A stretch of 64,000 bases of DNA from assembly GCA_026395995.1 (NCBI GenBank), contig JAPLXQ010000010.1, positions 69,296-133,295 on the forward strand. The letters run 5' to 3'. The position numbers and the translations under genes are program-made. The notes under the pieces were generated by a model. That model was not told the origin of the DNA and ran no database searches. It worked only from the letters and a program-made list of their open reading frames with translations. This document shows positions 7,332 through 40,927 of the stretch, piece by piece (position 1 is the stretch's first letter; each line of letters begins with the position of its first letter). The DNA comes from Candidatus Nomurabacteria bacterium (lineage in GTDB: Bacteria > Patescibacteriota > Minisyncoccia > Phycocordibacterales > UBA9973).

Positions 7332-10300
7332 ATGGAAGAAAAAAATAACACAAATAAATCAGAAGTAGCACTTCGTGAAGAAGCAGTTTTAGAATTTTGG
7401 AAAGAAAATGATATTTTCCAAAAAACTTTAAATAAAAAAGAAAATCCAAGAGGTGATTATATATTTTTCGATGGTCCGCCTACTGCGAATGGTATGCCAG
7501 GAATTCACCACATGGAAGCTCAAGCCTTCAAAGATGTCATGCCTCGTTATAAAACAATGAGAGGTTTTCATGTACCTAGAAAAGCTGGATGGGATACTCA
7601 CGGTCTTCCTGTGGAATTACAAGTAGAAAAAGCTCTCGGTTTGAAATCAAAAAAAGAAATTGAAAAATATGGTGTGGAACTTTTTAATCAAAAGTGTAAA
7701 GAAAGTGTTTGGAAATATCGAGATGAATGGATAAAATCACGTCAAAGAATGGGGTATTGGGTAGATATGGATAATGCTTATGTAACTTATAAAAATGATT
7801 ACATTGAAGCACTTTGGGGAGTAGTAGCAAAAGCCAATGATCGCGGACATTTATACAAAGACTTCAAAGTTCTTCCGTGGTGTACTCGTTGTGGAACAGC
7901 ACTTTCCAGTCACGAGCTTTCTCAACCAGGAGCATATAAAGATGTAAAGGATCTTTCAGTCTATGTGAAATTTAAAATAAAAGGTTTTGAAAATGGATAC
8001 TTTTTAGCTTGGACGACGACACCTTGGACTTTGCCTGGAAACGTGGGGCTAGCAGTCGGTAATGATTTTACTTATGTAGAAGCTAAAGTTGGTAATGATA
8101 TTTTGGTTCTTGCGAAAGAAAGATTAGAAATGATTACTGAGCCATACGAAATAATAGCAGAACATAAAGGTAGTGAAATGATTGGTATGGAATATGAACC
8201 ACTGTTTCCATATTTGAAAAATAATATAGAGAGTGATGTACGGACACAAATAGAAAATCTAAAAAACGCATTTAAAATTTATGGTGCAGATTTTGTGACG
8301 ACGACAGATGGTACAGGAATAGTACACACAGCAGTGATGTATGGAGCAGATGATTTTGACCTCGGTACAAAAGTTAACTTACCTAAATATCATACAGTAA
8401 ACGAAGAGGGAAGATTTGTTGCGGGTACTGATTTCCTCGAGGGACGATATGTAAAAGAAGCTGATGAGAATGGTAAGCCTACACTCGCGGTAGACATAAT
8501 AGACAATCTCACTGGCCGTGGACTTTTATTTAAAAAAGAAAATCACATGCACAGTTATCCGCATTGTTGGCGTTGTGATACACCGCTCATTTATTATGCG
8601 AGAACTTCTTGGTATTTCCGTATGAGTGCACTTCGTGATCAACTCCTAGCAGGAAATGAAAATATAAATTGGGAACCAAAACATATAAAAGAAGGACGTT
8701 TTGGTGAATGGCTCGACGGTATCAAGGATTGGGCTATTTCTCGTGATCGTTATTGGGGGACGCCGTTACCTATCTGGCAGAAGGCTGATGGAAGTTATAA
8801 AACTATTTCATCTCTTTTAGATTTGAAAAAATATACAAAGAAATCTGGAAATAAATATTTCATAATGCGCCACGGTGAGACAGAAGCCAATAAAAAAGGA
8901 ATTATTTGTTCATTACCTTCTGGTAAATGGCATCTAGATGAAGACGGAAAGAGGCAAGTAAATGAAACAGCTGAAAAATATAAAGATCAAAAAATTGATT
9001 TGATTTTTACTTCAGATTTTACTCGTACTCAAGAAACGGCAGAAATAATGGCTGATAAACTTGGATTAAATTCTGATCAAATTATCGTAGACCAAAGACT
9101 TCGTGAAATAGGTGCTTATTCTTTTGATGGAAAAAGTTGGAATGAATATCACGAGTATCATACAAAAACAGTTGAGAATTTCAACAAGCGTGTAAATGAA
9201 GATGAATCATATGAAGATGTAAAAATTCGTGTCACTTCTTTCCTTTATGAAATAGAAGAAAAATATAAAGATAAAAATATTTTATTTGTGACACATGGTG
9301 GACCAGCATGGTTGCTATTTGCTGGGGCTGAAGGTAAAGACCCAAAAGAAACATTAGACATGGTAATAGATAAGAAAGACTATCATTATTTCCAAAATGC
9401 AGAAATAAAAGAATTAAATTTTACTCCATTGCCACACAATGAAAAATTCGAATTAGATTTTCATAAACCATTTATTGATAATGTTGTATTAGAAAATAAC
9501 GGAGAAACACTTACTCGTACTTCAGAAGTGATGGACGTATGGTTCGACTCTGGGTCTATGCCTTATGCACAGGGTCATATACTTGGAGAAGAAATGAATT
9601 TCTCTCCCGCTAAAGCTGATTTTATTTCTGAAGGACTCGATCAGACTCGTGGTTGGTTTTATACTTTGCACGCTGTTTCAAATTTACTTTCAGACAAACC
9701 AAGTAATGCATATAACAATGTAATTTGTCTCGGGCTTATTCTGGATGCGAATGGACTCAAAATGTCCAAGTCTCGTGGTAATGCTGTAGACCCTTGGGCT
9801 ATGTTTGAAAAATATGGAGCAGACACTATTCGTCTCTGGATGTATTCTGTGAATCAGCCAGGGGAGTCAAAGAATTTTGACGAACGAACTGTGATGGAAC
9901 TTCACAGACAAGTTTTCGGACTTTTGTATAACATAGTTTCTTTTTATGAACTTTACCGAGACCATGACTTAGAAAGGTCTTTCCTTGAGGAGGAACATAG
10001 TGACGGGAAGGGTAAGTCCTTGCTAAGTCAGAACGTACTCGATATTTGGATTCTCGCTAGACTAAACGAATTAACAAAAAATGTTACAGAAAATTTGGAT
10101 GGCTACAAAACACTTGAACCAGTGCGCGCTATTCGTGATTTCATCGATGATTTATCTACATGGTATCTCCGTCGTTCACGTGAGAGAATTAAAGAAGGTG
10201 ATAAAAATGCAAAAGTTACTTTGTATTATGTTTTGAAAAACTTAACAAAACTTATGGCACCATTTGCACCATTTGCTAGTGAAGATATTTATCGAAAATT

Positions 10301-10862
10301 AAGAAATGAAAATGAGCCGGAATCTGTGCATCTTTGTGAATGGCCTAAATTCGAGGTTCTAGTTTCTAGTGATGAGGTTCTAGTGAAAATGCAGAAAACA
10401 AGAGACATTGTTTCTGTGGGATTAAAAGAGAGACAGAAATCAGGAATACCTGTGCGTCAGGTTTTGGGTAGTGTAAAGGTTCTTGTTGAAAAATTAGATA
10501 CTGAATACATTGATTTAATAAAAGAAGAATTGAACGTCAAAGAAGTAATACTAGAACCTAGCAACTCGAACCTAGAAACTAGTGTCGTACTCGACACAGT
10601 TATAACCCCTGAACTCAAAGAAGAAGGGAACTATCGCGAACTCGTTCGCGCTATTCAAGACATGCGTAAAAAAGCCGGACTTACTCCTTCAGACATAATT
10701 TCTCTTTCTATAGAAACTGATGAAATAGGAAAATCATTAATTCAAAAATTCGAAGCTGATTTCAAGAAAACTATTCTAATAAATGAAGTAAAATTTGAAA
10801 ATAACAGTGGGGAAGAGGTAAAAGTAGGCGCTTTAAATTTCAAAGTTAGTATTCTTAAATAA
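7332..10862 (+). CDS. ileS: isoleucyl-tRNA synthetase (type 2-like) carrying an inserted histidine-phosphatase domain at about 8790..9420
   Basis: HMEAQAF (HIGH-like), KMSKS, WAISRDRYWGTPLPIW and DVWFDSGSMPYAQ class-I editing aaRS motifs. The insert carries RHGETEAN, TRTQETAEI and VTHGG, the signature of the phosphoglycerate-mutase-like histidine phosphatase family. Confidence 0.85.
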   Translation: MEEKNNTNKSEVALREEAVLEFWKENDIFQKTLNKKENPRGDYIFFDGPPTANGMPGIHHMEAQAFKDVMPRYKTMRGFHVPRKAGWDTHGLPVELQVEKALGLKSKKEIEKYGVELFNQKCKESVWKYRDEWIKSRQRMGYWVDMDNAYVTYKNDYIEALWGVVAKANDRGHLYKDFKVLPWCTRCGTALSSHELSQPGAYKDVKDLSVYVKFKIKGFENGYFLAWTTTPWTLPGNVGLAVGNDFTYVEAKVGNDILVLAKERLEMITEPYEIIAEHKGSEMIGMEYEPLFPYLKNNIESDVRTQIENLKNAFKIYGADFVTTTDGTGIVHTAVMYGADDFDLGTKVNLPKYHTVNEEGRFVAGTDFLEGRYVKEADENGKPTLAVDIIDNLTGRGLLFKKENHMHSYPHCWRCDTPLIYYARTSWYFRMSALRDQLLAGNENINWEPKHIKEGRFGEWLDGIKDWAISRDRYWGTPLPIWQKADGSYKTISSLLDLKKYTKKSGNKYFIMRHGETEANKKGIICSLPSGKWHLDEDGKRQVNETAEKYKDQKIDLIFTSDFTRTQETAEIMADKLGLNSDQIIVDQRLREIGAYSFDGKSWNEYHEYHTKTVENFNKRVNEDESYEDVKIRVTSFLYEIEEKYKDKNILFVTHGGPAWLLFAGAEGKDPKETLDMVIDKKDYHYFQNAEIKELNFTPLPHNEKFELDFHKPFIDNVVLENNGETLTRTSEVMDVWFDSGSMPYAQGHILGEEMNFSPAKADFISEGLDQTRGWFYTLHAVSNLLSDKPSNAYNNVICLGLILDANGLKMSKSRGNAVDPWAMFEKYGADTIRLWMYSVNQPGESKNFDERTVMELHRQVFGLLYNIVSFYELYRDHDLERSFLEEEHSDGKGKSLLSQNVLDIWILARLNELTKNVTENLDGYKTLEPVRAIRDFIDDLSTWYLRRSRERIKEGDKNAKVTLYYVLKNLTKLMAPFAPFASEDIYRKLRNENEPESVHLCEWPKFEVLVSSDEVLVKMQKTRDIVSVGLKERQKSGIPVRQVLGSVKVLVEKLDTEYIDLIKEELNVKEVILEPSNSNLETSVVLDTVITPELKEEGNYRELVRAIQDMRKKAGLTPSDIISLSIETDEIGKSLIQKFEADFKKTILINEVKFENNSGEEVKVGALNFKVSILK

Positions 10863-11465: not shown

Positions 11466-12305
11466 ATGAAAAATAATACTATCGAAAAAACGGTTTTCTC
11501 TATCAATGAACTTTTAGAGAGAAAAAAAGAAAATGAAGATTTATATATTCAAGATGAATTAAGATCTTTAATTAGTGACATATTTAAAAGCCCGAAAGAT
11601 GCTGCGGAGTTCTTTTCCAAAGAAGTTAAATCTACTCTAAAAAAAATTATCTGTATGGATAAAAGTACGGGTGCGTACAGTCTATATAAGTATTTGAAAG
11701 AAAGCGATTTTTCTTTTTCTGAAGGGCTTCTCATGTATGCAATAGACAATGAACCTTATTATAACAATAATGACAGTGCTTTCGTTTATTACTTATTAAA
11801 AGCTGTGCATAAAACAGAATTAGAAAAAAGTGTAACACTTTTTGTAAATCAAACTCTTCTCTTAGAAGGACATTTTTGGGATTATAAAGAGATATTTATA
11901 AATTCATACGAGTTGCACAGAAAAAATCTAATTCCTCAAATTCCTCAAAATATAGAAAGAGAAATAATTCATTCTGTAAGTACAGGTCAGCATCATCACC
12001 GCAAAATGAAAGCAATAGCTACTTCTGTTTTCTTGGGTATACAGGGAGCAACGCCTCATATTTTAAACACTTTCCTCTCAAAAGTAAGAGAGGTGATTAA
12101 AATGAAAGAGCAAGGAGAAATTAAAGTTAACTACAACATAAATAATTCAGTTCAAAATTTGGGATTTGTTCTGTATTGTTTAACTAATGAAGAAAAATAT
12201 AAGGAGTTAAGCATTTGCCCAACTGACGGACTATTTGACGGGGACGATGTAAGAATACCAATCTTTAACACTATATATGAAACTATTAAAAAATATAATT
12301 ATTAA
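11466..12305 (+). CDS. hypothetical protein
   Basis: 279-aa ORF. No family recognised. Confidence 0.4.
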   Translation: MKNNTIEKTVFSINELLERKKENEDLYIQDELRSLISDIFKSPKDAAEFFSKEVKSTLKKIICMDKSTGAYSLYKYLKESDFSFSEGLLMYAIDNEPYYNNNDSAFVYYLLKAVHKTELEKSVTLFVNQTLLLEGHFWDYKEIFINSYELHRKNLIPQIPQNIEREIIHSVSTGQHHHRKMKAIATSVFLGIQGATPHILNTFLSKVREVIKMKEQGEIKVNYNINNSVQNLGFVLYCLTNEEKYKELSICPTDGLFDGDDVRIPIFNTIYETIKKYNY

Positions 12306-12321
12306 TATAGTTATATTGAGG

Positions 12322-12352
12322 ACGGATACGAGTAATCGTATCCGTTTTTTTT
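12322..12352. terminator. bidirectional Rho-independent terminator between the converging 11466 gene and recG
   Basis: ACGGATACGagtaatCGTATCCGT flanked by T and A runs. Confidence 0.6.
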
Positions 12353-14570
12353 ATTCAAAATGCAATTCTAAATGCTTTTTGGAAAGCATAGTTTTTAGTA
12401 GAGGGTGGTGTATGAGGTCTGGGTCGGTGGCGATAATGTTTGTCGCTTCGAGGCGGGCGGCTTCAACCATTTTTATATTTTTTATGGCTTCCATTCCGAG
12501 GTCAGTGATGCCCCATTGTTTCGCGCCGCCTAGTTCACCTGCACCGCGAAGTGTGAGGTCGAGTTCGGAAAGTTCAAAACCATTTTTAGCAGTTTTGAGA
12601 GCATTCAATCTGTGCATAGTTTTTTCAGATTTTGCTTCTGCGAAAACATAGCAAAAAGCTTGGTGATTACTACGGATCACGCGTCCACGGAGCTGGTGTA
12701 GTTGTGCGAGCCCAAATCTCTCTGCACCTTCGATGATTATTATCGTCGCATTCGGAACATTCACGCCCACTTCGATTACAGATGTTGCAACGAGAATATC
12801 AATAGCACCCAAAGTAAAACGCTCCATCACTTCTTCTTTTTTTTCTTTACTCATCTTGCTATGAAGTACTCCGATTTCACAATCTGTAAATATTTCTTTT
12901 TTAAGTCTTTTTGCTTCAGCTACTGCAGACTTCATTGTGAGAGCTAGTTCCTTTTCCGGATCTGGTTCGTCGATACGAGGGCAGATGACATAGAGCTGTC
13001 TACCTTTGGCCATTTCTTCTTTTATTTTTTTATAAGTATCTTCTCTTTTGTCTGGAGTAATTATTTCTGTAATCACTGGTTTTCTACCTGCTGGCATTTC
13101 GTTGAGCAAACTTAAATCAAGGTCACCATAAATAGTGAGCGCAAGAGTGCGGGGAATCGGTGTCGCTGTCATTGAAAGTAGATGAGGGGCGAAGCCGTCT
13201 TTGCGAACAAGATTTCTTCTTTGGTTTGTACCGAAACGATGTTGTTCATCGATTATTGTGAGTGCGAGGTTTTTAAATTTCACCGATTTTGAAATGAGTG
13301 CGTGGGTGCCGATAAGTATTGGAATTTCACCATTAGCAGTCCATTTCAAAAGTTGAGCTCTGGAAATATTTGTCCAGCCGTCAGGACTAACCTTTGAAGG
13401 AAACTTCCGACAGGTCTTGCCTGTCAGCAAGGCGACGTTGATCGGTAAATGTTTAAAATATTTTATAAACGATTCAAAATGTTGAGTTGCTAAAATTTCC
13501 GTCGGTGCCATATATGCGACTTGGAGATTTCCGAATGTTTGAGGCTTGCCCTGAGCGGAGTCGAAGGGTCTTTGAGTAACTGTCGCATAAGTCACAGTCG
13601 CTGCGACGGCAGTTTTACCAGAGCCTACGTCGCCTTCGAGAAGGCGAGACATTGGGTGGTCCGCTTTAATATCAGTGAGAATTGTATTAATAGCATCGAC
13701 TTGTCCTTGAGTCGCTTGAAAAGGAAAACGTTCCAAGAATTCTTGCACCTTAGCTTCATCTGGATTAACGCAAAATGATTTATTATTTTTATATTCTCTG
13801 CGGTCTTGTTGTCTTTGTAATTGGATGAAAAAAACTTCTTCAAAAGCAAAACGCTTTCTAGCTGAAAGGGAATCGTGTTCATTTTGCGGTGTATGAATCC
13901 AAATGAGTGCAGTCTTCAAACTCGGTAAATGATATTTATCTAAAATGTCTTTTGGTATGTAATCGAAAAAACTATCCAATACACCACTGTTAAATATTTT
14001 TTGTATTGTATGATAAATCCACTTTGAAGTAATACCTCTAGTTTCTCTGTATACAGGATATGAAAGTCCTACTCCCTCTCCTTTATAAGGAGAGGGTCGG
14101 GGTGAGGTGGATTTTTCAGGGGGTGAATTCTTAAATAAACTCTCATGTTTATCTATAGGAAGGCTTCCAATTTTTTCAAATTCTGGATTAGTAAGATATA
14201 AACCGCTTTTACTTTCGGTAACTTTCCCTGTGAGTTTGATGTTTTCTCCTTCATGAATCATTTTTGCAAGGTAAGCTTGGTGAAACCAAATTATTTTTAT
14301 TCTTCCTGAGAGGTCTTCGATGTAAGCTTCGCCCATAGGAATCTTTGAACGGAAACCTTTTTTTGTTTTTAAATTTGTTACTTTTCCATACACTGTGGCT
14401 GTTTCACCAGCTACTAACTCATCAATTTGTTTTATTTGAGAAATATCTGAGTAACGAACAGGGAAGTAGAATAGTAGGTCGGCAACAGAAAAAAGCCCGA
14501 GCTTGTGAAGGGCTTTTTTCTGATTGATGTCGAGGCGTGAAATGTCCTCAAGTTTGTCACCTATATTCAT
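12351..14570 (-). CDS. recG: ATP-dependent DNA helicase RecG, with an in-frame GC-rich palindromic insert near its N-terminus
   Basis: DVGSGKTAVAA Walker A and DEQHRFG DEAH box, plus the N-terminal wedge-domain region. 739 aa. Confidence 0.8.
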   Translation of the reverse strand: MNIGDKLEDISRLDINQKKALHKLGLFSVADLLFYFPVRYSDISQIKQIDELVAGETATVYGKVTNLKTKKGFRSKIPMGEAYIEDLSGRIKIIWFHQAYLAKMIHEGENIKLTGKVTESKSGLYLTNPEFEKIGSLPIDKHESLFKNSPPEKSTSPRPSPYKGEGVGLSYPVYRETRGITSKWIYHTIQKIFNSGVLDSFFDYIPKDILDKYHLPSLKTALIWIHTPQNEHDSLSARKRFAFEEVFFIQLQRQQDRREYKNNKSFCVNPDEAKVQEFLERFPFQATQGQVDAINTILTDIKADHPMSRLLEGDVGSGKTAVAATVTYATVTQRPFDSAQGKPQTFGNLQVAYMAPTEILATQHFESFIKYFKHLPINVALLTGKTCRKFPSKVSPDGWTNISRAQLLKWTANGEIPILIGTHALISKSVKFKNLALTIIDEQHRFGTNQRRNLVRKDGFAPHLLSMTATPIPRTLALTIYGDLDLSLLNEMPAGRKPVITEIITPDKREDTYKKIKEEMAKGRQLYVICPRIDEPDPEKELALTMKSAVAEAKRLKKEIFTDCEIGVLHSKMSKEKKEEVMERFTLGAIDILVATSVIEVGVNVPNATIIIIEGAERFGLAQLHQLRGRVIRSNHQAFCYVFAEAKSEKTMHRLNALKTAKNGFELSELDLTLRGAGELGGAKQWGITDLGMEAIKNIKMVEAARLEATNIIATDPDLIHHPLLKTMLSKKHLELHFE
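14071..14125. repeat. GC-rich palindromic element inside recG (CCCTCTCCtttataaGGAGAGGG followed by TCGGGGTGAGGTGG)
   Basis: Perfect 8+8 palindrome plus conserved tail. Encodes SPRPSPYKGEGVG in frame. Related copies at 39371..39418 and 33567..33600. Confidence 0.6.
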
Positions 14571-16790: not shown

Positions 16791-18218
16791 ATGAATGGAA
16801 AATTAATTATCGCAAGGCATGAAGAATCAGAATGGAATAAACTCGGCAAATGGACTGGTTCTGTGAATATTGGTTTAACTGGTGAAGGCTTTAATCAGTC
16901 CAGAAAAATGGGTGAACTCATTCGTGGTATTCCTATGGATCAAGCTTTTGCTTCAGCGCAAATCAGATCACTTGAAACACTTCTTTGTATGGAGGACGAC
17001 ATTTGTATTGATTTACCGATTACTCGATCCGATGCTTTAAATGAAAGAGATTATGGTGATTATACTGGAAAAAATAAATGGGAAATGAAAGATATTCTAG
17101 GCGAAGAAGAGTTTGATAAGCTTCGTCGTGATTGGGATTATTCTGTGCCAAATGGTGAGACTTTGAAAATGGTTTATGAAAGAATTGTGCCATACTACCT
17201 AAACACTATTTTGCCAATCTTAAAAGAAGGGAAGACCGTGCTTCTCGTCGCTCACGGAAATTCTTTGCGAGCCTTGATGAAATATTTAGAAAATATTTCT
17301 GATGAAAACATCTCTCATTTAGAAATGCTTTTTGATACTGTAGTAATTTATGAAATAAATGAAGAAGGAAAAATGGTTAGTAAGGAAGAGAGACATTTGC
17401 CAGCCATAAAAAATGATACAAAAAAGGTTGCACAAATTGTCGCAACGATTGGAATAAATTCTGGAAATAGAGAAACTCTTTTAGAATTGTTTAAAAATGG
17501 TATGAATATTGCTCGTTTGAATTTTTCTTGGTCTAGCCTAGATTGGCATGCAGAAAAAATAGCTTTAATTAAAGCTTCAGCCAAAGAGGCTGGAAAAAAT
17601 ATTTTGATTATTCAGGATTTACCAGGACCTAGAATTCAAGAAGAACATGGGCATACATATGACAAGACTACGACTTTCGATATGACAGAGCAAGATAAAA
17701 ATTTTGTGAAATTTGGTGTCGAGCAAGAGGTAGACTACACAGCACTTTCATTTGTCGGTAGTAAAAAAGAAATATTAGAATGTCGTGAACTTATAAAAAG
17801 TCTTGGTGGTACACAAAAAATAATTGCGAAAGTAGAGAGAAAAATCGCCGTCGATAACCTCGAAGAAATTATTTCTTCGGCTGATGCAGTGATGGTAGCC
17901 AGGGGAGATCTGGGCGATGAATTTCCACTTGAACAAGTTCCATTTATACAAGATAAAATTATTAAAGCTTGTAATAAGGCTGGTAAGCCCGTAATCACTG
18001 CTACACAAATGATGCTGTCGATGACAAATAGTCCGACGCCGACACGTGCTGAAGTAACAGATGTTTACTCTGCAATCTCACAAGGTAGCGATGCAGTAAT
18101 GCTTTCAGAAGAAACAGCCACAGGTAAATATCCAGTCGAAGCTGTGACTATGATGGAGAAAATTATTCTAGAAGCCGAAAGCCATATGACTAGTGATAAA
18201 AAATTAAATCTTTTGTAA
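16791..18218 (+). CDS. fusion of 2,3-BPG-dependent phosphoglycerate mutase (N-terminal) with a minimal pyruvate kinase A-domain (C-terminal)
   Basis: N-terminus: [15 protein letters not shown] and [13 protein letters not shown] (dPGM). C-terminus: [10 protein letters not shown] ... [10 protein letters not shown] ... IIAKVE ... [12 protein letters not shown] ... [20 protein letters not shown] ... [32 protein letters not shown] (pyruvate kinase), but with no B-domain lid and no C-terminal regulatory domain. Confidence 0.75.
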
Positions 18219-18220
18219 AA

Positions 18221-18253
18221 CTGCAGGGCGGAGGGGAACCCTCCGCCCTGCAG
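18221..18253. repeat. 15-bp perfect GC-rich inverted repeat CTGCAGGGCGGAGGG/CCCTCCGCCCTGCAG with 3-nt loop, no U-tract
   Basis: Lies directly after the pgm-pyk stop and before the TA pair. Highly atypical composition for this genome. Confidence 0.6.
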
Positions 18254-18298
18254 TTATCCACTTGACTTCTATATACACTCTATATATACTGTGTGTAT

Positions 18299-20265: not shown

Positions 20266-21303
20266 ATGGTAGAGACGTTAATATTAAATAGGATAAAATT
20301 TAATAAAAAAGGAATTCAAAAAAAGCTTATTTTGCAAGCTAAAAAGTCTTTAAATTTAACATGGTCTGAATTTGCTAAAGAATTAGGTGTAAGTACTAGA
20401 ACACTTACAAATTGGAGTTGTGAAAAGTTAAATATGTCTTTTGTCTCTGCTGAAAGAATTTCAAAATTAACAGATCTTAAAATTCCTAAAGGCTATTTAG
20501 TTATAAAATGGGATGATCATTTAAGAAAGATTAGTGCATCTGGTGGAAAGAGTAGTTTCAAAAAACATGGAAGAGTTGGTGGTGATGAAATATATAGAAA
20601 AAATAAATGGAAAGAATGGTGGACTAAAAATGGAAAGTATCAAAAAGCTCCTAGTGGTTATAATTCATTGTTAAATATAAAAAAACCAAAACATAATAAA
20701 TTGCTTGCTGAATATGTCGGTATTATGCTAGGTGATGGTGGAATAGCAAAATATTCTACGACAATTACTCTTTCAAATGAAGAAATAAATTATGTTAATT
20801 ATATATCAAGTTTGATAAATAAATTATTCGGTTTGACCCCAAAAGTTTATAAAAAGAAAAACGCTAATGCTGTCGATATAGTAGTTCAAAGAAAAGCTTT
20901 GGTAGATTTTTGCCAAAGTATTGGACTTGTTCAGGGAAATAAAGTTAAACATCAAGTAGATATTCCAAGCTGGGTCAAAGAGAATAAAAGTTTTTCGATA
21001 GAATGTGTTAGGGGATTAATAGATACTGATGGGTGCTTTTACACTAATTCGTATTATGTGAATGGTAAAAAATATTTTTATTTTAAAATTGCTTTTAAAA
21101 ACAGTTCTTTGCCGTTAATTAAATCAGTGGCAGAGATTTTAGCTAGTTTAGGAGTAAAAGTGAGAATAAGTAGAAATTTAAAAGACGTGCGAATTGAAGA
21201 AAAAGAATCAGTTTTAAAATATATAAAGGAAATAGGGACATATAATGATAAACATTTACAAAAAATAATAAAATGGAAAAATAGCAAAAATATGTTAGAG
21301 TAG
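20266..21303 (+). CDS. free-standing LAGLIDADG-family homing-endonuclease-like protein with an N-terminal HTH domain
   Basis: Two LAGLIDADG-type motifs (VGIMLGDGG and RGLIDTDGCF) and an N-terminal HTH (SEFAKELGVSTRTLTNW). Sits between two tRNA genes. Confidence 0.6.
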   Translation: MVETLILNRIKFNKKGIQKKLILQAKKSLNLTWSEFAKELGVSTRTLTNWSCEKLNMSFVSAERISKLTDLKIPKGYLVIKWDDHLRKISASGGKSSFKKHGRVGGDEIYRKNKWKEWWTKNGKYQKAPSGYNSLLNIKKPKHNKLLAEYVGIMLGDGGIAKYSTTITLSNEEINYVNYISSLINKLFGLTPKVYKKKNANAVDIVVQRKALVDFCQSIGLVQGNKVKHQVDIPSWVKENKSFSIECVRGLIDTDGCFYTNSYYVNGKKYFYFKIAFKNSSLPLIKSVAEILASLGVKVRISRNLKDVRIEEKESVLKYIKEIGTYNDKHLQKIIKWKNSKNMLE

Positions 21304-21313
21304 TTGGGTCAAA

Positions 21314-21402
21314 GGAACCGTGTCTGAGCGGTCTAAGGTACCTCTTTGCTAAAGAGGCAGGGGCTTTAAAACCCCTCGCGAGTTCGAATCTCGCCGGTTC
21401 CG
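21314..21402 (+). tRNA. tRNA-Ser(GCU), copy 1
   Basis: Acceptor GGAACCG/CGGTTCC, anticodon arm CCTCT-TTGCTAA-AGAGG, long variable arm, T-loop TTCGAAT, discriminator G. Confidence 0.75.
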
Positions 21403-21423
21403 CAACAAATCTAAACCCAAATC

Positions 21424-21629: not shown

Positions 21630-21851
21630 ATGGGTAAATCAATTAGAACAAAAGAATACGGAGTATTCGTCAAAAGTCTTCGCCAAGCTCGTGAAGAAAT
21701 GGGATTAACACAGGTTGAGGTCGCAAAGAAACTTAAAAGACCACAATCGTACATTTCTAAATGTGAAGCTGGCGAACAAAGGATTGATGTGGTTGAATTA
21801 AATAAGTTTGCGAAACTTTATAAAAAAAACATTGGATACTTTATAAGTTAA
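21630..21851 (+). CDS. XRE-family HTH regulator
   Basis: LTQVEVAKKLKRPQSYISKCEAGEQRIDVVELNKFAKLY matches the Cro/C1-type HTH. Confidence 0.65.
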   Translation: MGKSIRTKEYGVFVKSLRQAREEMGLTQVEVAKKLKRPQSYISKCEAGEQRIDVVELNKFAKLYKKNIGYFIS

Positions 21852-23885: not shown

Positions 23886-23974
23886 TGGAACCGTGTCTGA
23901 GCGGTCTAACGTACCTCTTTGCTAAAGAGGCAGGGGCTTTAAAACCCCTCGCGAGTTCGAATCTCGCCGGTTCC
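23886..23974 (+). tRNA. tRNA-Ser(GCU), copy 2 (2 mismatches to copy 1)
   Basis: 89 nt, same cloverleaf as 21314..21402. Differs only at taaggt/taacgt in the D-region. Confidence 0.75.
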
Positions 23975-24012
23975 GCTTGTAATAATTTTATACATTTAAC
24001 GGCAATAATAAT

Positions 24013-33558: not shown

Positions 33559-33566
33559 AACAACCT

Positions 33567-33600
33567 CACCCTAACCCTCTCCTGGAAAGGAGAGGATGGA
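33567..33600. repeat. intergenic copy (reverse orientation) of the GC-rich palindromic element: CCTCACCCTAACCCTCTCCtggaaaGGAGAGG
   Basis: Matches the recG and ligA elements (CCTCACCCcgACCCTCTCC reverse-complemented). Confidence 0.55.
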
Positions 33601-33717
33601 GAATGGGGTACGTTTTCCACAGGTAGTATTGTTATAATTTAAACCATGTTATAATTAACCTATTAAAAATAAGTCGAAATTATTTTATTAATTATTAGTT
33701 TAAGTTTAAAAAAATTT

Positions 33718-34169
33718 ATGAAGAAAATGAATCTTAAAAAAGGTTTCACATTAATCGAATTGTTGGTTGTTATTGCAATCATCGGTATCTTGGCCTCAGT
33801 CGTATTGGCATCACTTAACTCTGCACGTACAAAAGGAAAGGATGCATCTGCAAAGACACAAGTGTTCGTTCACAAGCTGAAATATTTTACAATACTGTAG
33901 GCACAACACCTGCTAACTCTTATGGTGCTGCTGACGTTGCTGGTGCTAACCAAGCTGGTAGTGTCTGTCAAGATGGTACTGTAGCTGGTTTACTTACAGC
34001 TGCTGGTACTCAAACAGGAACTACAGCAAGTTGTCACGTTGCTGCTGATCATGGATCATACGCAACTGAAATAGTACTAGCAGACGCTAGTAGATTCTGT
34101 GTTGATAGTACAGGTTTTGCTGGTGCATCATCAGTTGCTCTTGGTTCAGGAACAGTTTGTACTCGTTAA
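33718..34169 (+). pseudogene. type IV pilin gene 1; +1 frameshift at about 33865..33875 between the N-terminal module and the C-terminal domain
   Basis: Prepilin leader plus [23 protein letters not shown]. After DASAKTQV the pilin-like C-terminus ([13 protein letters not shown] ... FCVDSTGFAG) continues in another frame to the stop at 34167. Confidence 0.6.
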
Positions 34170-34207
34170 TAGTACTTTTATAGTATAAAAATACTATAAT
34201 ATTTTTT

Positions 34208-34254
34208 CAAAAACCACCTTCGGGTGGTTTTTGTTTTGTGTAACATGCTATAAT
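34208..34254 (+). promoter_or_regulatory. repeated terminator-promoter unit (AAAAACCACCttcgGGTGGTTTTTGTTTT ... TGCTATAAT); further copies at 34834..34878 and 35463..35510
   Basis: Three near-identical units, each between consecutive pilin genes. Hairpin plus T-run followed by an extended -10. Confidence 0.6.
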
Positions 34255-34292
34255 AGTACTATTATTAAAGTAATTAAAAATTAACATTTTAT

Positions 34293-34809
34293 ATGAAGAA
34301 AATGAATCTTAAAAAAGGTTTCACATTAATCGAATTGTTGGTTGTTATTGCAATCATCGGTATCTTGGCCTCAGTCGTATTGGCATCACTTAACTCTGCA
34401 CGTACAAAAGGAAAGGATGCATCTGCAAAGACCCACTCCACCTAATTCTTACGGAGTACCACCTACTAGTGTTTGTGAAGATTTACAAGTTCAGAAGTTG
34501 TTTACAGCCGCACATCTTCAAACACAAAGCAATGCTAGTTGTTTTGTTTCTGCTGATAGTAATTCTTATTCTGCTAGTGTAACCCTCAATGATCATACAG
34601 ATTTTTGTGTGGATAGTTCTGGTTTTGCGGGAGTAGGAACAGCTGTTCCTGTTGATGCAGATGGTAATGCTAGTTGTGGCGCTGCTGGTACTGGTGGAAA
34701 TAATAATCCTTTACCTCCTTGTGATCTTGAATCTGCACCTGGTAGTGGTTTGTTCAATTTGTTAGCTGGTGGTGCACCTGGTGGTGGTGATTGTACAATT
34801 AATCCTTAA
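34293..34809 (+). pseudogene. type IV pilin gene 2; first 140 bp identical to pilin 1, joined out of frame to a divergent pilin C-terminal domain
   Basis: 34293..34432 is identical to 33718..33857. The N-terminal frame stops at 34443, while the C-terminal ORF (PTPPNSYG ... FCVDSSGFAG ...) is in the -1 frame. Confidence 0.55.
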
Positions 34810-34914
34810 AAGATTTTTACATAATCACAAAACAAAAACCACCTTCGGGTGGTTTTTGTTTTGTGTACTTGATATAATGGTTCTATTATTAAAGTAATTT
34901 AGAAAAGATATTTT

Positions 34915-35445
34915 ATGAAGAAATTAAGTTTCAAGAAAGGTTTTACATTGATAGAACTGTTGGTTGTTATTGCTATTATCGGAGTACTCGCTAGTGTTAT
35001 TTTAGCTTCAATCAATACTGCTCGTACAAAGGGAACAGATGCTGCTATTAAATCACAATTAGCAAATGCTCGTGTTCAGGCAGAGCTTACTTATGATGCA
35101 AACGGTTGTTATGGTGCTACTTGTTCTGCTTCAGCTCCAGCGATTCTTGCTCCAGGGGCATGTTCTGTCGGTATTGCACTTGCTAATAGTATTTTTAATA
35201 CATCTGTGGATTCAAAATTTTCAGCACAGATTAGTGGTGCTATTGCCAATGATATAGGAGGATATAATGCTTGTTCTGCAGCTGTCGGAGGTACTACTTG
35301 GGCTGCTTCAGTCGGTCTTCGTACAAATCCTACGATACAAGCATGGTGTGTAGATAGTAGTGGTACATCAAAACTTGAGACAATTGCTGCCAATTCACAG
35401 GCTGCTTTAAATGGAACAGTTACTGCAGCAGGTCTTTGTTTATAA
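34915..35445 (+). CDS. type IV pilin (intact)
   Basis: [32 protein letters not shown]-methylation/cleavage motif. C-terminal Cys pair. Confidence 0.75.
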   Translation: MKKLSFKKGFTLIELLVVIAIIGVLASVILASINTARTKGTDAAIKSQLANARVQAELTYDANGCYGATCSASAPAILAPGACSVGIALANSIFNTSVDSKFSAQISGAIANDIGGYNACSAAVGGTTWAASVGLRTNPTIQAWCVDSSGTSKLETIAANSQAALNGTVTAAGLCL

Positions 35446-35543
35446 TTACTTTTAATCTCTCAAAAACCACCTAAATAGGTGGTTTTTGTTTTGTGTAGAT
35501 ATGCTATAATTATAATGTTTATTAATATAATTTTTAAAATTAA

Positions 35544-38336: not shown

Positions 38337-40927
<2,591 letters not shown>

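What the first reader, a model, noticed from the sequence alone, without database searches (positions are those of the whole stretch)
14071..14125. GC-rich palindromic element inserted in frame in recG
Within the low-GC recG coding sequence there is a 23-bp perfect palindrome CCCTCTCCtttataaGGAGAGGG followed by TCGGGGTGAGGTGG. It is translated in frame on the minus strand as ...SPRPSPYKGEGVG..., a Pro/Gly-rich loop in the variable N-terminal region, and recG is about 40-50 aa longer than typical. Two further copies with the same core (GAGGGTCGGGGTGRGGTG / CCTCACCCyrACCCTCTCC) occur at 39371..39418 (in ligA) and 33567..33600 (intergenic). This behaves like the Rickettsia palindromic elements, selfish hairpin repeats that insert into genes in frame.
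Basis: seen in the sequence. Interest (0 to 1): 0.62.

Follow-up and report, generated by a model that had tools for sequence, protein, structure and literature searches.

The report
Triplex-motif repeat inserted in frame in genes
A 35-base GC-rich repeat long known from E. coli spacer DNA (BoxC, or intrastrand triplex motif) sits in frame inside the recG and ligA genes of a tiny-genome Patescibacteria (CPR) bacterium, showing that here this still-unexplained repeat colonises loop-coding parts of essential genes.

Summary
Three copies lie at 14074-14107 (in recG), 39376-39410 (in ligA) and 33564-33595 (6 nt after a pilC-like gene). None is expected by chance.

The "tail" after the palindrome is part of the element. 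It mirrors the purine arm, giving C-arm / loop / G-arm / 3-nt loop / mirror G-arm. This is the BoxC / PIT / TM_ECO class II intrastrand triplex motif of E. coli. E. coli genomes carry a median of 13 near-identical copies. The 19-mer occurs in more than 15 bacterial phyla, nearly always with the complementary C-arm.

Orthologue alignments show real in-frame insertions: about +13 aa in a disordered RecG linker and about +9 aa in a LigA loop. Relatives with 80-91% protein identity lack them. The third copy is a clean ~48-bp presence/absence difference.

In 930 kb of related Paceibacteria DNA I found 40 such motifs, 29 of them inside genes (LigA, RecG, IleRS, PheS, PheT). They are read in all three sense frames and on the antisense strand, so conservation is at the nucleic-acid level.

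The best reading is a selfish, structure-defined repeat that survives in permissive loops of a gene-dense genome. It behaves like a Rickettsia palindromic element but is not one. The way it spreads is unknown.

The parts
14072..14110 (+). Copy A, whole element with the G-rich strand on +. Layout: (CT)CCCTCTCC / TTTATAA / GGAGAGGG / TCG / GGGTGAGG(TGG). It lies inside recG and is read on the minus strand as TSPRPSPYKGEG (aa ~155-166).
   Evidence: the insertion is shown
14074..14081 (+). Copy A pyrimidine arm, CCCTCTCC. It forms Watson-Crick pairs with 14089-14096.
14089..14096 (+). Copy A purine arm, GGAGAGGG, the central strand of the proposed triplex.
14100..14107 (+). Copy A third segment, GGGTGAGG. 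It is an antiparallel mirror of the purine arm: 6 G*G-C, 1 A*A-T and 1 T*A-T triads. It stays unpaired in the Watson-Crick fold.
12351..14570 (-). recG, the host gene (739 aa; RecG wedge, DEAD and Helicase_C domains). The element falls in the linker between the wedge and the helicase core.
39376..39410 (+). Copy B: CCCTCCC / ATTCGCCAA / GGGGAGGG / TCG / GGGTGGGG. It lies inside ligA and is read on the sense strand as [13 protein letters not shown]. All three arms carry the same A-to-G / T-to-C change relative to copy A.
38882..40927 (+). ligA, the host gene (681 aa NAD-dependent DNA ligase). The element falls in the adenylation-domain loop between IPLKL and EVRGEV.
33564..33595 (-). Copy C, intergenic, with the G-rich strand on minus: CCTCTCC / TTTCCA / GGAGAGGG / TTA / GGGTGAGG. 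It starts 6 nt after the stop codon of the pilC-like gene. Its core is the 19-mer GGAGAGGGTTAGGGTGAGG, also found in the E. coli copy.

Best explanation
[quoted passage not shown] It has a pyrimidine arm, a loop, the complementary purine arm, a 3-nt loop, and a G/T/A segment that mirrors the purine arm. As single-stranded DNA the G-rich strand can fold into a hairpin with the third segment laid on the purine arm by reverse-Hoogsteen triads.

In this Nomurabacteria/Paceibacteria (Patescibacteria, CPR) lineage it behaves as a selfish, non-coding, multi-copy repeat. It is gained and lost quickly, so it differs between genomes about 80% identical in DNA.

The genome is about 80-90% coding. Many copies therefore survive only where an in-frame, stop-free 24-39-nt addition is harmless. 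These places are variable, disordered surface loops of housekeeping proteins, where the element is simply translated as a Pro/Gly/Glu/Arg-rich peptide.

Shown: the anatomy, family resemblance, insertion polymorphism, multi-frame translation and loop hot spots. Inferred: that the folded single-stranded form is what is recognised or copied when the element spreads, and that the peptide has no function. The mobilising activity is unknown.
For: Anatomy and non-randomness:
- Searches give 3 copies against 0-0.1 expected.
- Copy B changes all three arms coherently.

The third segment is specifically a 3' mirror repeat:
- Related CPR DNA (893 kb) holds 80 perfect homopyrimidine/homopurine hairpins, against 1.2 expected.
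- 36 of them have the mirror segment 3' of the purine arm. One has a direct repeat there, and none has a mirror 5' of the hairpin.
- At least 10 different arm sequences each have a matching mirror.

Family resemblance:
- The E. coli search finds a median of 13 places per genome, all unannotated DNA.
- One E. coli copy reads CCCTCTCCC-TTAA-GGGAGAGGG-TTA-GGGTGAGGG.
- Holder et al. 2015 (PMC4666352) describe this motif, show by CD and NMR that it forms a triplex in vitro, and link it to local genome instability.
- The exact 19-mer occurs in at least 120 stretches from more than 15 phyla. In 119 of 130 hits the complementary arm lies within 22 nt upstream, against 4 in the control window.

Insertion:
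- RecG of a 91%-identical orthologue lacks it. A 97%-identical orthologue keeps it, with one loop-2 change.
- The LigA loop is 8 aa in 60 of 119 orthologues and 17 aa here.
- Copy C is a clean ~48-bp indel against L314.

Nucleic-acid-level conservation:
- The same DNA family is read as PSPLQGEG, PLLNKERG and LSLTRRG on the sense strand, and as SPRPSPYKGEG on the antisense strand.

Tolerated in genes:
- 29 of 40 motifs in 930 kb of CPR DNA lie inside ORFs of at least 150 aa. Outside ligA the count is 9 of 20. By the same criterion 80% of positions are genic.
- The hosts are LigA, RecG, IleRS, PheS and PheT.

Turnover and decay:
- One related genome has 0 copies and another has 6 in the syntenic DNA. 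None is in the same state as in the window.
- Point-mutated relics sit at LigA site 1.

Permissive site:
- RecG residues 137-183 are coil with pLDDT 30-35.
Against: - No terminal inverted repeats or target-site duplications are visible at any filled/empty junction.
- No transposase or other candidate mobiliser was identified.
- Insertions look like replacements of part of the old loop rather than clean additions.
- Holder et al. found no stable triplex in double-stranded DNA or in vivo by DMS footprinting. The fold may exist only transiently, or not at all.
- The element is essentially absent from 50,697 isolated phage genomes and rare on plasmids. No vehicle for its cross-phylum spread is known.
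- The CPR census is biased. All loci were fetched through ligA or recG, genes were called as stop-to-stop ORFs, and orthologous copies are not independent.
- ViennaRNA cannot score triplexes, so only the hairpin part has an energy estimate.
Confidence: 0.68

Rival explanations
1. The motif is a functional nucleic-acid structure kept by selection even inside genes. Possible roles are a replication or transcription pause site, a recombination or instability hot spot that diversifies loops, or an mRNA hairpin affecting stability or translation.
For: - The three-arm complementarity is preserved while loops and reading frames change.
- The same core sequence is kept across phyla, with loops following genome GC.
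- Holder et al. associate TM_ECO with local instability.
- The G-rich strand shows a weak bias towards the G-skewed strand, 26:12, p = 0.03 uncorrected.
Against: - Close relatives do without the copies, and one related genome has none in 34 kb.
- Decayed relics exist.
- Both orientations occur in genes, 19 to 10.
- Copy C has no terminator features.
- Earlier work cited in Holder et al. found no promoter, terminator or polymerase-blocking activity in E. coli.
Confidence: 0.15
2. The elements are not mobile. They spread by ectopic gene conversion or template switching between existing copies at stalled forks, using short microhomologies. Permissive loops are then repeatedly overwritten rather than inserted into.
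For: - No target-site duplications or terminal inverted repeats are seen.
- Filled sites replace 15-18 nt of the old loop.
- Left junctions often coincide with pre-existing C runs of Pro codons. Examples are ATACCCCT in L127 against ATACCCCTCTCC in L314, and CTGCCC against TTGCCCCCCTCTCC.
- The recG site carries two different subfamilies in 92%-identical genes.
- The motif is reported to provoke instability.
Against: This rests on only a handful of junctions, and C runs are expected in Pro-rich loop codons anyway. It does not explain how the family reached a new phylum. This is a variant of the main explanation rather than a true alternative.
Confidence: 0.12
3. The Pro/Gly-rich peptide is the selected product, a protein-level loop module. 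The DNA repeat is then only a by-product of similar peptides.
For: The insertions are in frame, stop-free and lie in surface loops.
Against: - The same DNA is translated in three sense frames and on the antisense strand, giving unrelated peptides.
- An identical element sits in non-coding DNA (copy C, and 11 of 40 CPR copies).
- Nearly identical DNA occurs in unannotated (apparently intergenic) DNA in E. coli.
Confidence: 0.02
4. [quoted passage not shown]
For: It inserts in frame into housekeeping genes, as RPEs do.
Against: - It is 35-40 bp against ~150 bp for RPEs.
- It has no conserved peptide, terminal inverted repeats or target-site duplications.
- It occurs in many phyla rather than in Rickettsia only.
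- Rfam has no matching family.
Confidence: 0.02

Closest known systems
BoxC / PIT element / TM_ECO intrastrand triplex motif of E. coli and other Proteobacteria (Bachellier 1990s and Hoyne et al. 2000 from memory; Holder et al. 2015, PMC4666352)
   Same: - It has the same three-part layout: C-arm, loop, G-arm, 3-nt loop, mirror G-arm (purine-motif class II).
- It has almost the same sequence. Copy C shares the 19-mer GGAGAGGGTTAGGGTGAGG with an E. coli copy.
- Loop 2 is TTA in copy C (E. coli type A) and TCG in copies A and B (compare type B, CCG).
- It is multi-copy, occurs in both orientations, has no associated transposase, and is polymorphic between related genomes.
   Different: - The arms form 7-8 triads rather than 9. 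There are 3-5 mismatches to the strict 27-position consensus, all at arm ends or from the copy B variant.
- Loop 1 is AT-rich.
- The host is a 33% GC Patescibacteria genome rather than Proteobacteria.
- Two of three copies here, and 29 of 40 in relatives, lie in frame inside essential genes. The 23 E. coli K-12 copies are all intergenic.
- Subfamilies exist with other arm sequences and with a 12-14-nt mini-hairpin in loop 2.
CCCTCTCCC-XX(X)-GGGAGAGGG palindromic repeats of Enterobacter sp. 638 (PMC2869309)
   Same: It has the same hairpin arms and about 100 dispersed copies.
   Different: Those repeats are described only as hairpins at 3' ends of genes and presumed to be terminators. None is reported inside genes.
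Rickettsia palindromic elements (RPEs)
   Same: They behave the same way: selfish palindromic repeats found in frame in unrelated housekeeping genes, tolerated as extra surface peptides.
   Different: RPEs are ~150 bp, fall into ten families each with a conserved peptide read in one frame, and are restricted to Rickettsia. This element is four times shorter, is read in any open frame, and occurs in many phyla.
REP/BIME elements with their RAYT transposases, and IS200/IS605 single-strand 'peel and paste' transposition (from my own knowledge)
   Same: These are short GC-rich hairpins recognised as folded single-stranded DNA. They have no terminal inverted repeats or target duplications. This is a possible model for how a structure-defined repeat could move.
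   Different: No RAYT or TnpA-like gene was found or looked for systematically. REPs carry a conserved GTAG and stay extragenic. The third mirror segment has no counterpart in REPs.
DNA uptake sequences (Neisseria DUS, Haemophilus USS) (from my own knowledge)
   Same: They are over-represented short motifs found inside genes in all frames, preferentially in poorly conserved protein segments. A type IV pilus cluster is present in the window.
   Different: Uptake sequences are 9-12 bp and arise by point mutation. This element is a 35-40-bp structured insertion shared with species that have no such uptake bias.

Membership tests
BoxC / PIT / TM_ECO intrastrand triplex motif | Three consecutive blocks: pyrimidine arm, complementary purine arm, and a third G-rich block mirror-symmetric to the purine arm (class II purine motif). 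| tested here: met
   All three copies give perfect 7-8-nt triads. In related DNA the mirror block lies 3' of 36 of 80 hairpins, against 1 for the direct-repeat control and 0 for the 5' control.
BoxC / PIT / TM_ECO intrastrand triplex motif | Strict consensus CCCTCNCCC-N3-6-GGGNGAGGG-N3-GGGNGAGGG (9-nt arms). | tested here: not met
   The best fits have 3 (copy A), 5 (copy B) and 4 (copy C) mismatches in 27 specified positions. The arms are 7-8 nt and loop 1 is up to 9-10 nt in copy B. The copies fit the broader ITxF definition (arms 6-15 nt) but not the strict E. coli consensus.
BoxC / PIT / TM_ECO intrastrand triplex motif | Sequence similarity to bona fide E. coli copies. | tested here: met
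   Copy C matches 36 of its 46 query bases at 86% identity in 5401 of 5426 E. coli genomes, with a median of 13 places. The 19-nt core is identical to the mrcB-hrpB spacer copy.
BoxC / PIT / TM_ECO intrastrand triplex motif | Strictly intergenic location, as reported for E. coli K-12. | tested here: not met
   Copies A and B lie inside recG and ligA. In relatives 29 of 40 copies are genic.
BoxC / PIT / TM_ECO intrastrand triplex motif | The G-rich strand forms a stable intramolecular triplex in vitro. | not testable with these tools
   Only the Watson-Crick hairpin can be scored (-10.4, -9.1 and -7.8 kcal/mol). The triad rules are satisfied on paper. This needs CD, NMR or UV melting of the 8-triad variants.
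BoxC / PIT / TM_ECO intrastrand triplex motif | Multi-copy and polymorphic between related genomes. | tested here: met
   There are 3 copies in 64 kb. Two related genomes carry 0 and 6 copies in the syntenic DNA, with clean presence/absence differences.
Rickettsia palindromic elements | About 100-150 bp palindromic element. | tested here: not met
   The element is 35-40 bp.
Rickettsia palindromic elements | Each family encodes a conserved peptide read in one frame. | tested here: not met
   The same DNA family is read in three sense frames and on the antisense strand.
Rickettsia palindromic elements | Inserted in frame in unrelated housekeeping genes at structurally permissive places. | tested here: met
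   The hosts are RecG, LigA, IleRS, PheS and PheT. The sites are variable-length loops and a low-confidence coil in the RecG model.
Rickettsia palindromic elements | Restricted to the genus Rickettsia. | tested here: not met
   The host is Candidatus Nomurabacteria/Paceibacterota, and the motif occurs in more than 15 phyla.
[quoted passage not shown] | Terminal inverted repeats and target-site duplications. | tested here: not met
   Neither is visible at any filled/empty junction. Divergence of the loops limits the resolution.

The most novel reading that the evidence does not exclude
Triplex-motif elements may be an actively spreading, structure-defined kind of bacterial repeat that needs no terminal repeats and leaves no target duplication. 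They may be copied as folded single-stranded DNA by host replication or repair functions, or by an unrecognised enzyme. In CPR bacteria they turn over fast enough that the same loop of an essential gene is hit again and again. Because these genomes have under about 1000 genes and vary from 0 to many copies between sister species, the activity behind BoxC-type repeats, unexplained since the 1990s, could be found by phylogenetic profiling there.
Probability: 0.3. Interest if true: 0.8.

Novelty: new variant of a known kind. Interest (0 to 1): 0.6.

Why it matters
BoxC/PIT/TM_ECO repeats have been known in E. coli for about 30 years. They have no known function, no known means of spread, and a reputation for being strictly intergenic.

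Here the same motif sits in a phylum far from Proteobacteria. It is embedded in frame in essential genes (DNA ligase, RecG, and in relatives three aminoacyl-tRNA synthetase genes). It is read in any open frame and is repeatedly gained at the same loops. This has three consequences.

- The conserved unit is the three-arm nucleic-acid structure, not a peptide or a regulatory position.
- Minimal, gene-dense genomes offer a natural assay for where such insertions are tolerated.
- These genomes are a tractable comparative system for finding what mobilises the repeats.

There is also a practical point. These insertions inflate and diversify CPR protein sequences with Pro/Gly/Glu/Arg-rich loops. That matters for annotation, alignment and structure prediction.

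I found no paper describing this for Patescibacteria in the searchable library.

Tried and rejected
- **Rfam, whole window at gathering thresholds:** only tRNAs, and no RNA family covers the element.
- **Intrinsic terminator or promoter role for copy C:** no terminator-like site, and the element is absent at that place in L314.
- **Exact look-up of the window's RecG:** not on record. The source genome itself could not be retrieved, so there is no whole-genome copy count.
- **Phage vehicle:**
  - IMG/VR contigs hold at least 120 stretches with the motif. In 115 of 136 hits the complementary arm is present.
  - 50,697 isolated phage genomes give no match at E <= 0.01 and only 16 weak matches at E <= 10.
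  - Plasmids give 119 of 72,556 records, and some of those are chromosome-sized.
  - I therefore do not claim an association with phages or plasmids.
- **Target-site duplications and insertion-site motif:** none found. All three empty sites contain A6-7 runs, and some left junctions fall on C runs. In a 33% GC genome with Lys and Pro codons this is not evidence.
- **IleRS as a filled/empty pair between window and L003:** the L003 gene is mosaic, only 58% identical overall. It shows insertion in variable loops but no clean junction.
- **Strand bias relative to GC skew (26:12):** suggestive at most, because orthologous copies were counted separately.
- **Genic fraction in non-CPR low-GC loci:** of 11 copies only one (L060, in a methyltransferase-like ORF) is convincingly inside a gene. 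Two others lie upstream of the likely start codon.
- **AlphaFold model of RecG:** poor overall (mean pLDDT 61). I used it only to show that the insert lies in a low-confidence coil, and ran no fold search.
Full report
**1. What is in the sequence**

At 14074-14107 the + strand reads CCCTCTCC TTTATAA GGAGAGGG TCG GGGTGAGG.
- The first and third blocks are complementary. With two loop bases on each side they form a 10-bp stem with a 3-nt loop (DNA fold -10.4 kcal/mol, z = -3.3).
Read backwards it is GGAGTGGG. That is the mirror image of the purine arm GGAGAGGG, with one A replaced by T.
- Every position therefore satisfies the purine-motif triad rules (G*G-C, A*A-T, T*A-T).
- The Watson-Crick fold leaves this block unpaired.

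There were no hits in 100 shuffles.

I wrote a finder that asks only for structure: a pyrimidine arm, the complementary purine arm, and a mirror third block. It returns exactly these three loci. Simulated windows give 0.1.

Copy B (39376-39410) reads CCCTCCC...GGGGAGGG TCG GGGTGGGG. The A-to-G change in the purine arm is matched in both other arms.

Copy C (33564-33595, G-rich strand on minus) reads CCTCTCC TTTCCA GGAGAGGG TTA GGGTGAGG.

**2. Host genes and organism**

- Copy A lies in a 739-aa ORF on the minus strand with RecG wedge, DEAD and Helicase_C domains.
- Copy B lies in a 681-aa NAD-dependent DNA ligase.
- Copy C starts 6 nt after the stop codon of a T2SS-F/PilC-like gene and lies upstream of pilin genes.
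- The window is 29-39% GC.
- The closest RecG and LigA proteins are from Candidatus Nomurabacteria / Paceibacterota metagenome-assembled genomes, that is Patescibacteria or CPR.

**3. They are insertions**

*RecG.* I aligned 120 RecG homologues.
- The linker between the wedge and the helicase core is 10 aa in 67 of 121 sequences and 23 aa in the window.
- A 91%-identical orthologue (L002) has ...KKDTKEQSGF... and no element at the DNA level.
- A 97%-identical one (L004) keeps the element, with loop 2 TTG instead of TCG.
- A 92%-identical one (L003) carries a different subfamily at the same place: CCCCCTC / GCCCTTTGGGCA / CTCCCCC / TTATAAA / GGGGGAG.

*LigA.*
- The loop between IPLxL and EVRGE is 8 aa in 60 of 119 orthologues and 17 aa in the window. 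E. coli LigA (2OWO) has 8 residues fewer there.
- An 87% relative (L314) has the same family about 12 nt away and in another frame (IPLSLIRRGVQGEVNS). That is an independent event.
- An 80% relative (L127) is empty.

*Copy C.* It is a clean ~48-bp presence/absence difference within conserved flanks when compared with L314.

*Structure.* An AlphaFold model of RecG is poor overall (mean pLDDT 61). It places residues 137-183 in coil with pLDDT 30-35.

**4. What it is**

*E. coli.* A blastn search with copy C finds matches in 5401 of 5426 complete genomes.
- The median is 13 places per genome, all over unannotated DNA in the rows shown.
- The mrcB-hrpB spacer reads CCCTCTCCC TTAA GGGAGAGGG TTA GGGTGAGGG, followed by an inverted second copy with loop CCG.

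*Literature.* This is the BoxC / PIT / TM_ECO motif of Holder et al. 2015 (PMC4666352).
- Its consensus is CCCTCNCCC-N3-6-GGGNGAGGG-N3-GGGNGAGGG.
- There are 23 copies in K-12, all intergenic, in types A (TTA) and B (CCG).
- It forms a triplex in vitro by CD and NMR. No stable triplex was seen in duplex DNA or in vivo.
- It has no promoter or terminator activity and is associated with local instability.
- Enterobacter sp. 638 has 100 copies of the hairpin part (PMC2869309).

*How the window copies compare.* They are shortened to 7-8 triads and have 3-5 mismatches to the strict consensus. Copy C shares a 19-nt core with the E. coli copy.

*Distribution.*
- The hosts include Alpha-, Beta- and Gammaproteobacteria, Desulfobacterota, Myxococcota, Planctomycetota, Verrucomicrobiota, Bacteroidota, Chloroflexota, Actinomycetota, Acidobacteriota, Dormiibacterota and Patescibacteria.
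- In 119 of 130 hits the complementary C-arm lies within 22 nt upstream. A control window gives 4.
- Loops are GC-rich in GC-rich genomes and AT-rich in AT-rich ones, while the arms stay the same.

**5. Behaviour in this lineage**

I fetched 67 loci around LigA relatives from metagenomes. Together with the window and two related genome loci they make 930 kb.

*Census.*
- They contain 40 non-redundant perfect motifs.
- 29 lie inside stop-to-stop ORFs of at least 150 aa. In 19 the G-rich strand is the sense strand, and in 10 it is the antisense strand.
- By the same criterion 80% of positions count as genic.
- ligA was the bait. Leaving it out gives 9 genic and 11 intergenic copies. That is a depletion, as expected if most genic insertions are lethal, but far from the zero of E. 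coli.
- The host genes are LigA (up to five copies in one gene), RecG, IleRS, PheS and PheT.

*Frames.* The same DNA family, CCCTCTCC-TTWAYAA-GGAGAGGG-N2-7-GGGTGAGGT, is read in several ways.
- On the sense strand it gives PSPLQGEG, PLLNKERG or LSLTRRG.
- On the antisense strand it gives SPRPSPYKGEG.
- What is conserved is therefore the nucleic acid, not a peptide.

*Unbiased test of the third block.* Of 80 perfect homopyrimidine/homopurine hairpins (1.2 expected), 36 have the mirror block 3' of the purine arm. One has a direct repeat there, and none has a mirror on the 5' side.

*Variety.* At least ten different arm sequences each come with their own matching mirror. One subfamily has a 12-14-nt mini-hairpin (GTGCCCnnnGGGCG) as loop 2.

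*Hot spots.*
- 40 of 119 LigA orthologues and 30 of 121 RecG orthologues have at least 6 extra residues at the two sites.
- LigA 'site 1' shows empty states (30-33 nt), perfect motifs (54-57 nt), point-mutated relics, and unrelated hairpin inserts at the same place.

*Turnover.*
- In the DNA syntenic with the window, at about 80% nucleotide identity, GCA_026395955.1 has no motif and GCA_026396065.1 has six.
- None of them is in the same state as in the window.

**6. Mechanism**

Shown:
- a structure-defined repeat of the BoxC/TM family;
- real, recent, in-frame insertions;
- multi-frame translation;
- survival in variable loops;
- rapid gain, loss and decay.

Inferred:
- the element spreads as a selfish sequence whose folded single-stranded form is the recognised or copied unit;
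- purifying selection leaves only in-frame, stop-free copies in permissive loops;
- the peptides are passengers.

Not resolved: how it moves.
- There are no terminal repeats and no target duplications.
- Filled sites replace 15-18 nt of the old loop.
- This fits template switching or ectopic conversion at least as well as cut-and-paste.

I found no support for a phage or plasmid vehicle in curated collections, although IMG/VR contigs do carry the motif.

A functional role for the DNA or RNA structure cannot be excluded. It is disfavoured because close relatives lack the copies, relics decay, both orientations occur, and earlier experiments in E. coli were negative.

**7. Verdict**

It is wrong about kinship, and it missed the mirror third arm.

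The element belongs to a known kind, the BoxC/PIT/TM_ECO intrastrand triplex motifs. It appears here as a shortened variant, in a new phylum, with a behaviour not reported for the family: routine residence inside essential genes.

Literature searches found no description of this in Patescibacteria.

Limits of the analysis:
- The census loci were ascertained through ligA and recG.
- Genes were approximated by long ORFs.
- Orthologous copies are not independent.
- Triplex formation was not, and cannot here be, computed or measured.
- The source genome itself was not found.

Noticed in passing
window 21314-21403 and 23887-23976; ORFs 20266-21303 and 21630-21851: Two 99%-identical tRNA-Ser(GCT) genes lie 2.5 kb apart. 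They bracket small ORFs, including an XRE-type HTH protein (Pfam HTH_3). A free-standing LAGLIDADG endonuclease gene (Pfam LAGLIDADG_3, E = 7e-14) sits just upstream. It looks like a small integrated element that duplicated the tRNA.
   Followed up: partly
window 13541-13570 (in recG, minus strand): A second GC-rich stretch lies in recG and is translated RPFDSAQGKPQ. Many of the Paceibacteria RecG orthologues shown have FD[YFS]AQGKP here, while others have a short RPNGQ loop. It may be an older in-frame insert of another repeat family.
   Followed up: partly
LigA loops of relatives: P0148, P0174, P0184, P0215, P0237 (site 2); L134, L154, L155, L160 (site 1): Other, non-triplex GC-rich hairpin elements occupy the same loops. 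The peptide GHPMSKWTSDVQ can be back-translated to a perfect 15-bp-arm palindrome (one possible codon choice, inferred from the protein only). A 25-aa insert, KPAKKNSPAYALGDLGQGTHDSLNFS, is bounded by GAATTC repeats in L315. Several repeat families seem to share these permissive sites.
   Followed up: partly
L003 12261-13666 (GCA_026396065.1): A reverse transcriptase (RVT_1) plus a bAvd gene, the signature of a diversity-generating retroelement, lies immediately downstream of recG in the 92% relative. In the window an unannotated 279-aa ORF (11466-12305, no Pfam hit) lies at that position.
   Followed up: no
window 33696-35500: Three tandem pilin-like genes share 165-nt 5' parts at 94% and 67% identity, and nearly identical hairpin terminators (CAAAAACCACCTTCGGGTGGTTTTTG) follow them. 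This is a recently duplicated pilin cassette next to copy C.
   Followed up: no
window 18217-18259: A perfect GC-rich palindrome, CTGCAGGGCGGAGGG-GAA-CCCTCCGCCCTGCAG, starts at the stop codon of the 475-aa phosphoglycerate-mutase/pyruvate-kinase fusion ORF. It looks like a terminator and is unrelated to the triplex family.
   Followed up: no
L003 14960-18580 compared with window 7332-10862: The IleRS of the 92%-RecG relative is only 58% identical to the window's overall, yet nearly identical in the inserted His_Phos domain and the C-terminus. This is a mosaic gene and suggests recombination between lineages. IleRS itself carries an internal histidine-phosphatase domain.
   Followed up: no
CPR loci, 38 motifs: The G-rich strand of the motif lies on the G-skewed strand 26 times against 12 (binomial p = 0.03). 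The count is not corrected for shared ancestry or gene orientation. It is a weak hint of a bias linked to the replication strand.
   Followed up: partly
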